From assembly GCA_965224245.1 (NCBI GenBank), contig OZ245046.1, positions 768,001 to 832,000 on the forward strand: 64,000 nt of DNA, given 5' to 3'. Below the pieces are notes generated by a model. That model saw only the letters and a program-made list of their open reading frames with translations. It did not search any database and was not told where the DNA came from. Of the stretch, positions 29,396 through 35,450 are shown piece after piece. Origin of the DNA: Candidatus Eiseniibacteriota bacterium. GTDB lineage: Bacteria; Eisenbacteria; RBG-16-71-46; CAZAMP01. Position 1 is the first letter of the stretch. Each line of letters starts with the position of its first letter. The translations under genes and the position numbers were made by a program.

Positions 29396-30958
<1,563 letters not shown>

Positions 30959-31394: not shown

Positions 31395-31531
31395 CATGTT
31401 GGATACGCGGTCTTTGCGTCGCGTTGGTACACGTGCCCTCGTGGCACGTGACTGATGCCGAGCAAGAGCGTTGAGGTTACTCTAGAGTTTGGCCAAGCTA
31501 CTAAGGGCAAACGGGGGATGCCTTGGCGTCG

Positions 31532-31566
<35 letters not shown>

Positions 31567-33357
31567 CTCGGTGAGCTGCAACGAGCGTTGACCCGGGGAT
31601 GTCCGAATGGGGAAACCCGGCGGGAGTAATGTCCCGTCACTGCTGGCTGAACACATAGGCCAGACAGAGCCAACTGGGGGAACTGAAACATCTAAGTACC
31701 CCAAGGAAGAGAAAGCAACCGCGATTCCCTCAGTAGCGGCGAGCGAACGGGGAACAGCCTAAACCGATCACATGTCAAACCCGCCGGTGTTGTGGGATCG
31801 GTGTTGTGGGGCTCGATTGGACTCCACGGCGGTGGAGTCGGGAAGTCAGAAATCGTGTGTCTAGCCGAACCCTTCTGGAAAGTAGGACCATAGCGGGTGA
31901 CAGTCCCGTAGGCGAAAGGCGCACGACTTCCTGGATCGAGTACCCGAGTAGGGCCGGACACGTGAAATCCGGTTTGAACCTGGGAGGACCACCTTCCAAG
32001 GCTAAATACTCTCCGACGACCGATAGCGAACCAGTACCGTGAGGGAAAGGTGAAAAGCACCCCTGGAGGGGAGTGAAAAGTATCTGAAACCGTTTGCCTA
32101 CAAGCGGTCGGAGCACTTCGGTGTGACGGCGTGCCTTTTGCATAATGAGCCGGCGAGTTACTCGAGGCTAGCGAGGTTAAGTGGCTAAGCCACGGAGCCG
32201 TAGCGAAAGCGAGTCCTAACTGGGCGTTTAGTTAGTTTCGGTAGACCCGAAGCCAAGTGATCTAGCCATGGCCAGGTTGAAGCGTATGTAACAATACGTG
32301 GAGGACCGAACCAGACAGAGTTGAAAATCTGCTGGATGAGCTGTGGTTAGGGGTGAAAGGCCAATCAAACTTGGAGATAGCTGGTTCTCCCCGAAATGGA
32401 TTGAGGTCCAGCCTTGCGGAATTGTGTGGCGGAGGTAGAGCACTGAATGGGTTAGGGGCCCCACCAGGTTACCGACCCCAATCAAACTCCGAATTCCGTT
32501 CACATGTATCGCAGGAGTGAGGTCACGAGGGATAAGCTTCGTGCCCGAGAGGGAAACAACCCAGACCGCCAGTTAAGGCCCCCAAGTACAAGCTAAGTGG
32601 CTTTAAGGATGTGGGACTACACAGACAGCTAGGATGTTGGCTTAGAAGCAGCAACCATTTAAAGAGTGCGTAATAGCTCACTAGTCAAGTGGTCCTGCGC
32701 CGATAATACACGGGACTCAAGCTTGTCGCCGAAACTGCGGACTGTCGAGGCCTTCGGGCTCCGACTTTGGTAGGGGAGCGTTCTGTTGTAGGTTGAAGGT
32801 GTCTCGACGAGAGGCGCTGGACGAAACAGAAGTGATGATGCCGGCACGAGTAGCGATAAAGCAGGTGAGAAACCTGCTCACCGAAAACCCAAGGTTTCCT
32901 GAGCAAGGTTAATCCGCTCAGGGTTAGTCGGCCCCTTAGCCGAGGCCGAAAGGCGTAGGTGATGGGAAACGGGTCAACATTCCCGTACCACCTGACAACG
33001 TTTGACCGATGGGGTGACGCAGAAGTGAAAGGCCAGCCGGTTATTGGATTCCGGTCTAAGGGTGTAGGAAGGTGCTTTAGGTAAATCCGGAGCATCAATT
33101 CCGAGACCTGAATGGGAAACGAGCCTTCGGGCGAGCCAACTGGCCCTAAGCATGCTGCCGAGAAATAGCCTCTAGGGAGTTCGTCAGGTGACCGTACCGT
33201 AAACGGACACACGTAGGTGGGGTGAGTAACCTAAGGTGCTCGAGTGAATTCTAGCCAAGGAACTCGGCAAAATGTCCCCGTAACTTCGGGAGAAGGGGAA
33301 CCTTCTGAGGATAGTCCCTCGCGGACGAAAGTAGGAAGGTCGCAGAGAATCGGCCCA

Positions 33358-33389
<32 letters not shown>

Positions 33390-33485
33390 TAAGTCGACGA
33401 GACGACGTATAGGGTCTGACACCTGCCCGGTGCCGGAAAGTTAAGAGGAGGGGTTAGCCTTCGGGCGAAGCTCTGAATTGAAGCT

Positions 33486-33523
<38 letters not shown>

Positions 33524-34169
33524 TAAGTAACGCTAGCCTTAGTAAAACTGGACCATATGCGGGAAACTCCTCAAAAGCCGTCCGGTACTCGCCGGTGGTC
33601 TCGATCACCCAGATCGAGCGCCCGGCAGTAACAATCCGGCGGACATGTGGACAATCCGCAGGGAAGGCCCGCGTCTGCCGCGGGAACCCTCAGAGACTTG
33701 ACGTCCAGGACTGGTCGATGAAGCTTGACGCACAGTGGATCACAGGATTCGTGGACGGTGAAGGGTGCTTCTACGTCGGCGTGAACTCACAGCCGTCGAT
33801 GAGCACCGGAGTTCAGGTTCTACCTGAATTCACCGTCGTGCAGCACGAACGTGATGTGCAGCTGCTGCAGGCCCTCAAGACGCACTTCGGTTGTGGCGTC
33901 GTTCGCAAGAACAACGGCGACCGAATGGCGTTTCGGGTTCGCAGTCTCCGGCACCATCTGGAGCGCATCATTCCATTCTTCGTCAAGCACCCGTTGAAGT
34001 CGAAGAAGCGCGCTGATTTCGAGAAGTATCGGCGTGTATGTCTTCTGATGGAACGTGGTGATCATCTGACTCCGGAAGGAGTGGAGGAGATCCGTCGGAT
34101 CGCCTCCCAGATGAACCGAGGCCAGTCAAGGTAAAGTCCGTCCCGCTTGGAAACAGGTGGGAGCAAACG
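33524..34169 (+). mobile_element. Group I self-splicing intron at 23S position L1931 (E. coli numbering), 646 nt
   Basis: Removing it restores CCTAAGGT-AGCGAAATTCC; exon ends in U and intron in G; P1 CTAAGGT/GCCTTAG with U.G, P10 CGCT/AGCG, P3 CTGGAC/GTCCAG, P4 TGCGG/CCGCA, R CAGAGACT, S AAGGTAAAGTCC, P9 with GAAA loop. Confidence 0.95.
33718..34134 (+). CDS. Single-motif LAGLIDADG homing endonuclease (138 aa) in the intron P8 loop
   Basis: WITGFVDGEGCF, FTVVQH, LKTHFGCGVV, IIPFFVKHPLKSKKRADF, HLTPEG. Confidence 0.95.
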   Translation: MKLDAQWITGFVDGEGCFYVGVNSQPSMSTGVQVLPEFTVVQHERDVQLLQALKTHFGCGVVRKNNGDRMAFRVRSLRHHLERIIPFFVKHPLKSKKRADFEKYRRVCLLMERGDHLTPEGVEEIRRIASQMNRGQSR

Positions 34170-34219
<50 letters not shown>

Positions 34220-34467
34220 TCTGGGCACTGTCTCGGCTAGAAGCTCGGCGAAACTGTAGTAGCGGTGAAGATGCCGCTTACCCGCGTCTGGACAGAAAGA
34301 CCCCATGGACCTTTACTGCAACTTGATATTGGGTTTCGACCTTGCATGTGTAGGATAGGTGGGAGGCGTTGAGACGGGGGCGCTAGCTTCCGTGGAGCCG
34401 ACCTTGAAATACCACCCTTGTGACGTTGGAATTCTAACCTGGCTCCGTGAATCCGGGTCAGGAACAG

Positions 34468-34503
<36 letters not shown>

Positions 34504-34713
34504 AAAAAGGTAACGGAGGCGCACAAAGGTTCCCTCAGCGTGGTCGGCAATCACGCGAAGAGTGTAAAGGCAAAAGGGAGCTTGACTGCGAGACCGACAG
34601 GTCGAGCAGGTGGGAAACCAGGTCTTAGTGACCCGGTGGCGCCGAGTGGAAGGGCCATCGATCAACGGATAAAAGGTACCCTGGGGATAACAGGCTTATC
34701 TCCCCCGAGAGTC

Positions 34714-34771
<58 letters not shown>

Positions 34772-34825
34772 GCGGTCCCAAGGGTTTGGCTGTTCGCCAA
34801 TTAAAGTGGTACGTGAGCTGGGTTT

Positions 34826-34857
<32 letters not shown>

Positions 34858-34974
34858 ACGTGGGCGCAGGAGGTTTGAGGAGATCTGACTATAGTACGAG
34901 AGGACCTAGTTGGACGCACCTCTAGTGCACCTGTTGTCGCGCCAGCGGCATGGCAGGGTAGCTACGTGCGGGAT

Positions 34975-35007
<33 letters not shown>

Positions 35008-35323
35008 AACTCCAAGATGAGACCTCCCTGACTTCGGTCCTGAAGGCCCCTTCGAGACTAGGAGGTTGATAGGCTGGAGGTGTAAGCGTGGTAACACGCT
35101 CAGCCGACCAGTACTAATAGGCCGTGCGGCTTGGCCTTTTCGAGAGCCTCGTCGCAACTGTTTGCGTCAGGGATGCGTAGCACTTTCGAGTGATGCGGAT
35201 CTGCCGACGCGCCGCAAAACCGCTATCCAACGTGGATTTGTCCAGGATTATCCCCGCCGAGGCCTTGATCTAGGCTGCCGCTTGACTGGCAGTTCCTGTC
35301 AGGCGCTTTGGCGGTGGAGTTTT

Positions 35324-35440
35324 TTCCGGTGGCAATGGCGGAGGGGCCACACCCGTTCCCATTCCGAACACGGTCGTTAAGCCCTCCAGCGCCGATGGTA
35401 CTGCCCGGGTGACTAGGTGGGAGAGTAGGACGTCGCCGGA
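35324..35440 (+). rRNA. rrf: 5S rRNA
   Basis: CACCCGTTCCCATTCCGAACACGG, GCCGATGGTACTG, GGGAGAGTAGG; TCCGGTGGC/GTCGCCGGA terminal stem. Confidence 0.97.
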
Positions 35441-35450
35441 TTTTTCTTCG

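What the first reader, a model, noticed from the sequence alone, without database searches (positions are those of the whole stretch)
33524..34169. Intact mobile group I intron with LAGLIDADG endonuclease in 23S rRNA (L1931)
Seen: a precise 646-nt insertion after U1931 with P1, P10, P3, P4, P7, P8 and P9 pairings, a terminal G and an uninterrupted 138-aa endonuclease gene that is visibly lower in GC than the host genes. Known: bacterial rRNA group I introns are rare; L1931 introns are described from green-algal/protist organelles (I-CpaI type), Simkania and Thermotoga. Inference: a still-mobile intron in a new host lineage, and a candidate new homing endonuclease for a universally conserved rDNA site. 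The insertion also splits the I-CeuI recognition sequence.
Basis: partly seen in the sequence, partly recalled or inferred. Interest (0 to 1): 0.8.

Follow-up and report, generated by a model that had tools for sequence, protein, structure and literature searches.

The report
Self-splicing intron in 23S rRNA gene
The only large-subunit ribosomal RNA gene of this bacterium is interrupted by a genuine group I intron that carries an intact homing-endonuclease gene, but it belongs to a family already known and found in many bacteria, so it is ordinary.

Summary
Window 33524-34169 is a 646-nt insertion in the 23S rRNA gene at the site conventionally called L1931. It starts after an exon U that pairs with an intron G, and it ends in G. 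It matches Rfam's group I model (E 4.7e-11, 48.3 bits, just under the 50-bit cut-off). It contains an uninterrupted 138-aa LAGLIDADG gene (33718-34134).

Across 73 homologous introns the proposed fold is 95.6% base-paired, and 38 of 68 pairs show compensatory changes. The endonuclease gene shows purifying selection (median dN/dS 0.12).

The claims of rarity and novelty do not hold:
- The endonuclease has more than 3,600 database relatives; the best 120 are 72-100% identical.
- At least 175 species genomes encode a relative, and the 73 aligned introns come from about 14 phylum-level groups.
- Within the host phylum (probably Candidatus Eisenbacteria), 6 of 205 other genomes carry the same intron with the gene, and 3 carry it without.
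- A close homologue has a solved structure.
- This scan has reported the same kind of element before on other DNA (chlamydial, alphaproteobacterial and CPR genomes).

Splicing and cleavage could not be tested, because the RNA data did not contain this organism. Verdict: a real, intact, new member of a known kind, of low interest.

The parts
31491..35138 (+). Host gene: 23S rRNA. It is part of a 16S - tRNA-Ile - tRNA-Ala - 23S - 5S operon.
   Evidence: RF02541 at 2776.9 bits; tRNAs named.
33524..34169 (+). Group I intron, 646 nt, inserted at L1931. The last base (34169) is the terminal G.
   Evidence: Direct reading; RF00028 at E 4.7e-11; all 74 homologous inserts examined end in G.
33517..33542 (+). 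P1: exon 33517-33523 pairs with the internal guide 33536-33542, with a U.G wobble at the splice site (33523 with 33536).
   Evidence: 7 pairs, 100% paired; the U.G is present in 73 of 73 sequences.
33531..33534 (+). P10 guide segment, pairing with the first four bases of the 3' exon (34170-34173).
   Evidence: 4 standard pairs in the window. In the alignment 85.6-94.4% of cells are paired; the alignment is poor in this region.
33548..33708 (+). P3 (33548-33553 with 33703-33708), which encloses the P4-P6 domain.
   Evidence: 6 pairs, 5 with compensatory changes, 100% paired.
33558..33660 (+). P4 (33558-63 / 33655-60), P5 (33568-72 / 33647-51), P5a (33578-85 / 33636-42, one bulged U) and P5b (33591-95 / 33622-26, with an extra distal hairpin at 33600-33618).
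   Evidence: P4: 5 of 6 pairs invariant. P5a: 7 of 7 pairs with compensatory changes. P5b: 4 of 5. The window has a U.U in P5.
33661..33689 (+). P6 (33661-63 / 33687-89) and P6a (33668-73 / 33679-84).
   Evidence: P6 has 1 of 3 pairs with compensatory changes and P6a has 5 of 5 (helix 10); the sixth P6a pair, helix 11, is mostly gaps in the alignment.
33693..33698 (+). P7 5' strand with a bulged A. It pairs with 34135-34139 and forms a pseudoknot with P3. This is the presumed guanosine-binding helix.
   Evidence: 5 pairs, 4 invariant, 99.5% paired, so there is no covariation to test. The G-binding role is inferred from group I architecture.
33711..34125 (+). P8 (33711-16 with 34120-25), whose loop holds the endonuclease gene.
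   Evidence: 6 pairs, all with compensatory changes, 90.9-92.9% paired.
33718..34134 (+). Homing-endonuclease gene, 138 aa, single LAGLIDADG motif (GFVDGEG at residues 10-16). Its last codons and the stop overlap P8 3' and J8/7. An AGGA lies 7 nt upstream (33707-33710), within P3 3'/J3/8.
   Evidence: positions read.
34135..34139 (+). P7 3' strand.
34142..34161 (+). P9 hairpin, 8 bp with a GAAA loop.
   Evidence: 8 pairs, 6 with compensatory changes, 90.6% paired.

Best explanation
This is a complete group I intron of the L1931 family sitting in the bacterium's only assembled 23S rRNA gene.

Most likely mechanism:
- The intron is transcribed within the pre-23S RNA and folds into the P1-P10 ribozyme. 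It has no P2 and an elaborate P5 arm.
- It excises itself by the two guanosine-initiated transesterifications of group I introns, rejoining the exons at the H69-H71 junction.
- Its P8 loop encodes a 138-aa single-motif LAGLIDADG protein. As a homodimer, this protein would cut the intron-less form of the same universally conserved rDNA site, so that repair copies the intron in (homing).

Shown here: the insertion and its boundaries, the match to the group I model, the conserved and covarying fold, the intact and selectively constrained gene, and membership of a large family present in many phyla.

Inferred, not shown: self-splicing in this host, enzyme activity and target, dimerisation, and present-day mobility.
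For: Boundaries, terminal G and U.G at the splice site: (U.G in 73 of 73; terminal G in 74 of 74).

Group I model: RF00028 at E 4.7e-11.

Fold, tested on 73 introns:
- 95.6% of 4,895 cells are paired, against 23.6-48.8% when the partners are slid by 1-3 columns.
- 38 of 68 pairs have changes on both sides.
- 0 of 500 shuffles reach any of the five measures.
- In the window 67 of 68 pairs are standard.

Gene:
- Pfam LAGLIDADG_1 at E 4.4e-24.
- Solved homologue 5gkk_A at E 4.3e-51 over residues 2-136.
- The window protein keeps 54 of the 56 positions that are at least 95% conserved.
- Median dN/dS against relatives is 0.12, range 0.067-0.253. This covers the 39 of 62 pairs that gave a finite value; in the rest dS was saturated.

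Same site elsewhere: 69 of the 80 genome-contig loci, plus 4 relatives, show both exon landmarks around an insert at the identical position.

Presence in reads: in public run X1 a 701-nt contig with no differences covers 33497-34197 at depth 12.8. The organism-specific flanks are at 11.4 and 13.
Against: - RF00028 scores 48.3 bits, below Rfam's 50-bit gathering score.
- No RNA evidence. The only exon-exon joints seen (X5, X7) come from runs with zero depth on the intron, so they are from other organisms.
- The X1 contig reaches only 27 and 28 nt into the exons, under the tool's 31-letter rule for bridging, and X1 may be the source sample.
- The window has a U.U mismatch in P5.
- The window protein has two unique substitutions at otherwise conserved positions, L80H and F104Y.
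- P1, P4 and P7 are nearly invariant and so carry no covariation evidence.
- The 73 introns were mostly found with the protein as query, so 'all intact' is biased by how they were found.
Confidence: 0.9

Rival explanations
1. The intron is fixed and now only inherited vertically, and its endonuclease is no longer active: a relic on the way to ORF loss, as the homing cycle predicts.
For: - The assembly has a single rrn copy, so there is no target in the cell.
- The window protein has unique L80H and F104Y substitutions at positions conserved in 68 of 69 rows.
- ORF-less L1931 introns exist in three genomes of the same phylum: G173, G084 and G023.
- The intron tree clusters by phylum (22 label changes against 41.2 when shuffled).
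- One clade for the six Eisenbacteria rows is not clearly rejected (AU p 0.634 on the quick tree, 0.0465 on the careful tree).
Against: - The frame is open at full family length.
- 54 of 56 conserved positions are kept, including the GFVDGEG motif.
- dN/dS is about 0.12, although that averages over long branches and does not isolate this lineage.
Confidence: 0.2
2. The intron is not removed, or is removed only with host help, and stays in the 23S rRNA. The title of Everett et al. 1999, as cited in PMC11270868, reports this for Simkania.
For: There is no RNA evidence either way. The precedent is known to me only from the cited title; the paper itself is not held.
Against: Strong compensatory change in P3, P5a, P5b, P6a, P8 and P9 across phyla implies selection on the ribozyme fold. 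That selection makes sense only if the ribozyme acts. The site also lies at a functionally central junction of the ribosome; this last point is from general knowledge.
Confidence: 0.06
3. The insert is an assembly chimera: an intron from another community member stitched into this genome at a universally conserved stretch.
For: The 27-28 nt of exon that the X1 contig reaches are identical in all 73 sequences, so they cannot assign the intron to a host.
Against: - Intron depth (12.8) equals the organism-specific flanks (11.4 and 13) in X1, and the intron is also present in X4.
- The window lies on a contig of about 6.45 Mb (P0001).
- Relatives in the same phylum carry the intron at the same site.
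Confidence: 0.03

Closest known systems
[quoted passage not shown] (Table 1 and text of Haugen et al. 2007, PMC1995217; passages read)
   Same: - Same insertion site.
- Similar size: 654-700 nt there, 646 nt here.
- One LAGLIDADG motif.
- No P2 and a complex P5.
- The ORF runs from a peripheral loop into the ribozyme core.
   Different: - The host phylum differs.
- The protein is shorter: 138 aa against 143-167 aa.
- I could not align against those sequences, because none was available from a tool.
- The subgroup is unsettled in print. Haugen et al. call these introns IC1-like, while the archaeal LSU/1931 introns were found with the IB4 model (PMC6125680, passages). I did not test subgroup.
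Insertion site 1931 of CPR/Patescibacteria 23S rRNA genes, encoding LAGLIDADG_1 proteins (Tsurumaki et al. 2024, PMC11270868; passages read)
   Same: Same site and same Pfam family. One Patescibacteria locus (L026) falls inside this intron family, with a protein 73% identical.
   Different: The host here is not a CPR bacterium. That paper treats non-CPR bacterial rRNA introns as limited to a few species, which searches do not bear out.
PDB 5gkk_A 'putative homing endonuclease' (170 aa), and the monomeric I-OnuI / I-SmaMI / I-PanMI family
   Same: 5gkk_A aligns over residues 2-136 at E 4.3e-51. Each half of the two-domain I-OnuI-type enzymes aligns to the whole protein at E 1e-31 to 1e-48.
   Different: The window protein is a single domain and so presumably a homodimer, whereas the I-OnuI-type enzymes are fused two-domain monomers from fungal mitochondria. 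The tool does not give the source organism of 5gkk, and a literature search for that code found nothing.
I-CeuI and its intron at the neighbouring 23S site
   Same: The recognition sites overlap: the L1931 insertion falls inside the 26-bp I-CeuI site, splitting it 21|5.
   Different: The insertion point is different. No I-CeuI, I-CreI or I-MsoI chain appears among the 60 best PDB matches.
Multi-intron arrays at L1917 / L1931 / L1951 (Coxiella, Synechococcus sp. C9; PMC1995217 passages)
   Same: Relatives in the host phylum carry such arrays. G173 and G084 have L1931 plus an L1951-type intron, G023 has L1917 plus L1931, and G015 has L1917 plus L1931.
   Different: The window's gene has only the L1931 intron.

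Membership tests
Group I intron (Rfam RF00028) | Match to the family covariance model | tested here: inconclusive
   48.3 bits against a gathering score of 50, but E 4.7e-11 over the full model 1-253. No match was listed in the whole-window search at gathering threshold.
Group I intron (Rfam RF00028) | P1 with a U.G wobble at the 5' splice site, and a terminal G at the 3' end | tested here: met
   U.G in 73 of 73 sequences; terminal G in 74 of 74 inserts.
Group I intron (Rfam RF00028) | Conserved core P3-P9 with a P3/P7 pseudoknot, supported by covariation | tested here: met
   95.6% of cells paired; 38 of 68 pairs changed on both sides; slid controls 23.6-48.8%. P4 and P7 are invariant, so they are uninformative.
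Group I intron (Rfam RF00028) | Guanosine-dependent self-splicing | not testable with these tools
   The RNA runs that were laid did not contain the intron.
L1931 intron family | Insertion between the bases equivalent to E. coli 23S 1931 and 1932 | tested here: met
   The exon letters are identical to E. coli on both sides. The position is 1933 in a 2906-nt annotated copy. The two-base offset to the conventional number rests on recall.
L1931 intron family | Intron and protein homologous to the described L1931 members (Simkania, Thermotoga, Synechococcus, I-CpaI type) | not tested
   No tool supplied those sequences. Indirect evidence only: 73 homologous introns at the same site, including a Chlamydiales genome (L084) and a Patescibacteria genome (L026).
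LAGLIDADG homing endonuclease, single-motif type | LAGLIDADG_1 domain with one motif carrying the acidic residue | tested here: met
   PF00961 at 85.7 bits, residues 8-107. GFVDGEG at residues 10-16 is at least 95% conserved in 69 rows.
LAGLIDADG homing endonuclease, single-motif type | Homodimer that cleaves the intron-less site | not testable with these tools
   Inferred from the 138-aa single-domain size and the family's known behaviour. I did not run a complex prediction.

The most novel reading that the evidence does not exclude
The endonuclease may be kept by selection for something other than homing, for example helping the intron fold (a maturase role, known for some LAGLIDADG proteins). 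That would explain why an intact gene under purifying selection persists in a genome with one rrn copy, and why the intron tree mostly follows host phyla.
Probability: 0.1. Interest if true: 0.5.

Novelty: new member of a known kind. Interest (0 to 1): 0.2.

Why it matters
For this genome the practical consequences are small:
- The 23S gene is 646 nt longer than expected.
- The intron ORF should be annotated as a homing endonuclease inside an rRNA gene.
- I-CeuI would not cut this rDNA.

The wider point is a correction to a common statement. The L1931 intron-endonuclease element is not rare in bacteria. There are thousands of near-identical-length homologues in public data, and it occurs in genomes of about 14 phylum-level groups. 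Papers as recent as 2024 (PMC11270868, passages) still describe bacterial rRNA introns outside the CPR as limited to a few species. My three literature searches found no paper describing the broad non-CPR distribution. Supplementary tables of those papers were not available to me and may hold more.

Tried and rejected
- **Splicing evidence from public reads.** Runs X5 (DNA?) and X7 (RNA) show contigs joining 33523 to 34170, but both have zero depth on the intron. The joints therefore come from intron-less rRNA of other organisms, and this gives no verdict. X1 and X4 show no such joint, which also proves nothing, because contigs break in conserved rRNA.
- **Horizontal versus vertical descent in the host phylum.** Holding the six Eisenbacteria rows as one clade gave AU p 0.634 on the quick tree (the free search was worse than the constrained tree) and 0.0465 on the careful tree. 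This is inconclusive. The protein tree is too short to resolve it.
- **Papers.** Nesbo and Doolittle 2003 and Everett et al. 1999 are not held. I know them only through citations and passages in PMC1995217 and PMC11270868.
- **PDB code 5GKK.** A literature search returned no paper.
- **RNase III-type intervening sequence.** Considered and rejected: the insert has the group I core and a homing-endonuclease gene.
- **A longer 179-aa ORF from GTG at 33595.** Rejected: the ATG at 33718 aligns with the start in nearly all relatives, and 115 of the 120 best homologues are 138 aa.
- **Not run:** complex or structure prediction, since sequence identity to solved structures already settles the fold.

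Full report
**What is there**

The window carries one rRNA operon: 16S (29396-30952), tRNA-Ile(GAT), tRNA-Ala(TGC), 23S (31491-35138) and 5S (35325-35441). The 23S gene is about 720 nt longer than the bacterial model.

A local alignment places one large insertion after the H69 stem-loop. Reading the sequence, the 5' exon ends ...CGGTCCTAAGGT at 33523 and the 3' exon resumes AGCGAAATTCC... at 34170. No other placement of the boundaries restores the conserved exon text. The insert is therefore exactly 33524-34169, 646 nt, and ends in G.

E. coli has the two exon stretches contiguous (L102). The exon U is base 1933 of that 2906-nt annotated copy. I take this as the conventional 'L1931'. The two-base offset rests on my recall of the H69 pseudouridine numbering, and on the literature's use of that label for introns at this spot (PMC1995217, passages).

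**Is it a group I intron?**

At the default threshold Rfam lists no intron. With an E-value threshold RF00028 matches 33491-34160 over the whole model at 48.3 bits, E 4.7e-11. That is just under the curated 50 bits, with the ORF as a long insertion in the P8 loop.

I drew the structure by hand on the window sequence. The helices are P1 (exon 33517-23 with guide 33536-42, U.G at the splice site), P10, P3, P4, P5, P5a, P5b, P6, P6a, P7, P8 and P9. There is no P2, and there is an elaborate P5 arm. This matches the description of L1917/L1931 introns in PMC1995217 (passages). In the window 67 of 68 pairs are standard; the exception is a U.U in P5.

I tested this structure on an alignment of 73 homologous introns (described below). 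The results are:
- 95.6% of 4,895 cells are standard pairs, against 23.6-48.8% when the partners are slid by one to three columns.
- 38 of 68 pairs show changes on both sides.
- None of 500 shuffles reaches any of the five observed measures.
- Covariation is strong in P3 (5 of 6 pairs), P5a (7 of 7), P5b (4 of 5), P6a (5 of 5 in the well-aligned helix), P8 (6 of 6) and P9 (6 of 8).
- P1, P4 and P7 are almost invariant, so they neither support nor contradict the fold.

The structure was derived from one of the aligned sequences, which by itself favours it over the slid versions. The number of double changes is too large to be explained that way.

**The gene**

ORF 33718-34134 (138 codons plus stop) lies in the P8 loop. 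Its last five codons and the stop overlap the 3' strand of P8 and J8/7. P7's 3' strand starts at the next base. An AGGA sits 7 nt upstream of the ATG, within P3's 3' strand and J3/8. Ribosome binding and ribozyme folding should therefore compete; this is an inference.

Evidence that the gene is intact and constrained:
- It matches Pfam LAGLIDADG_1 at E 4.4e-24.
- It aligns to solved structures. 5gkk_A ('putative homing endonuclease', 170 aa) matches at E 4.3e-51 over residues 2-136. Each half of the two-domain I-SmaMI / I-OnuI / I-PanMI enzymes matches at about 1e-48 to 1e-31.
- Among 69 ungapped 138-aa relatives, 56 positions are at least 95% conserved and the window keeps 54 of them, including GFVDGEG at 10-16. 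Its two departures, L80H and F104Y, are unique to it.
- dN/dS against relatives has a median of 0.12 (0.067-0.253) for the 39 of 62 pairs that gave a finite value. In the rest synonymous sites were saturated.

It equals the rRNA exons at 55.6%.

**How common is it?**

- The protein has 3,626 relatives at E <= 0.001 among 3,630 candidates. The best 120 are 72-100% identical, and 115 of those 120 are exactly 138 aa.
- In the species-representative genome collection, 401 stretches matched the search peptides, 175 were confirmed and 80 were kept. This is a lower bound, because the search needs exact peptide words.
- Of those 80, 69 show both exon landmarks around an insert at the identical site. 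The other 11 have the 5' landmark but not the 30-base 3' landmark; I did not examine them. They may end at a contig edge or carry a further insertion.
- Together with the window and three relatives these make the 73 aligned introns.
- They come from Pseudomonadota (19), Chloroflexota (17), Acidobacteriota (8), Actinomycetota (5), Myxococcota (3), two each of Eisenbacteria, Latescibacterota, Gemmatimonadota, Bacteroidota and Planctomycetota, four single-row phyla, and seven rows without a phylum label.

**The host and its kin**

Consistent with that, among named loci the window's 23S exons are closest to the two 'Candidatus Eisenbacteria' records, L018 and L032 (81% and 80% for the 5' exon, 87% and 86% for the 3' exon). 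This is on a par with the unnamed same-class relatives.

The own assembly has one copy of the region and one LAGLIDADG gene.

In the 206 genomes held for the phylum:
- 7 including the window's encode a protein 61-100% identical to this one, and 11 more encode a 30-40% identical LAGLIDADG protein.
- A search with the intron's 5' ribozyme part, which does not depend on the protein, finds 9 of 206 genomes.
- Two of the additional ones, G173 and G084, carry ORF-less L1931 introns of 232 and 273 nt. Each is followed by a short exon (21 nt in G173) and a second intron with its own endonuclease.
- G023 has an ORF-less 266-nt L1931 intron behind an L1917-type insertion.
- Seven relatives fetched are uninterrupted at this site.

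Many of these genomes lack assembled rRNA genes, so the fractions are minimum figures. Occupied sites with the gene, occupied sites without it, and empty sites is the pattern the homing cycle predicts.

**Vertical or horizontal?**

The intron tree clusters by phylum far more than chance: 22 label changes, 13 the minimum, 41.2 when shuffled. It still needs several cross-phylum placements. The six Eisenbacteria rows are scattered within one unresolved 28-row group. Forcing them together is not clearly rejected (AU p 0.634 on a poor quick tree, 0.0465 on the careful tree). I cannot say whether this lineage acquired the intron recently.

**Reads**

Four runs of one study hold 60-82% of the sampled words.
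- In X1 a 701-nt contig with no differences covers 33497-34197 at depth 12.8. This matches the organism-specific flanks at 11.4 and 13.
- In X4 a 677-nt contig covers 33521-34197 at depth 2.
- The contigs reach only 27-28 nt into the exons, and these runs may be the source sample. This is weak, non-independent support that the insert is real and that all copies are occupied.
- The RNA run laid (X7) had no depth on the intron, so splicing remains untested.

**Comparison with what is known**

L1931 introns with single-motif LAGLIDADG genes are on record for Simkania, three Thermotoga species, two Synechococcus strains and organelles (PMC1995217, Table 1 and text passages). They are also on record for CPR bacteria (PMC11270868, passages) and archaea (PMC6125680, Table 1 passages).

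The window's element shares the site, size class, architecture and ORF-into-core overlap. It differs in host phylum and in having a shorter protein. I could not align it to the described members, because no tool supplied their sequences.

The I-CeuI claim holds. The 26-bp site given in PMC2790883's primer table is present in the window as 21 bases ending at 33523 and 5 bases starting at 34170.

This scan has already reported the same kind of element on other DNA. Examples are a chlamydial genome (e1-3982838) and an alphaproteobacterium (e1-4724440).

**Verdict**

This is a real, complete L1931 group I intron with an intact homing-endonuclease gene. It is a new member of a known and, in public data, very common kind. 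Its activity and mobility are inferred, not shown.

Noticed in passing
L094 (G173), minus strand, about 1106-1337 and onward to 2053: This is an ORF-less 232-nt L1931 intron whose P8 is a short hairpin. It is followed by a 21-nt exon and then a second intron (L1951-type position) that carries its own LAGLIDADG gene, 37% identical to the window's. G084 (L101) has the same layout with a 273-nt ORF-less intron.
   Followed up: partly
L011 (G023) 1276-1541; L004 (G015) upstream of 1503: G023 has a 266-nt ORF-less L1931 intron behind a roughly 730-nt insertion at about L1917 that encodes a 36%-identical LAGLIDADG protein. G015 has a roughly 288-nt insertion at about L1917 in addition to its L1931 intron. 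The H69-H71 stretch is an intron hot spot in this phylum.
   Followed up: partly
window 31773-31845: The 23S gene has an expansion of about 60-70 nt, relative to the bacterial model, in domain I (alignment). It accounts for most of the extra length that is not intron.
   Followed up: no
L024 and L034; L026 with L043/L045/L054: Two cross-phylum pairs of near-identical introns appear in the tree. A 'Syntrophus aciditrophicus' bin groups with an Anaerolineales bin at 100/99 support. A Patescibacteria bin groups with Acidobacteriota at 96/94. These are either recent transfers or mis-binned rRNA contigs.
   Followed up: no
window 33600-33618: The window's P5b arm carries an extra 7-bp hairpin with a 5-nt loop, which most of the 72 other introns lack (alignment columns about 130-190).
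   Followed up: no
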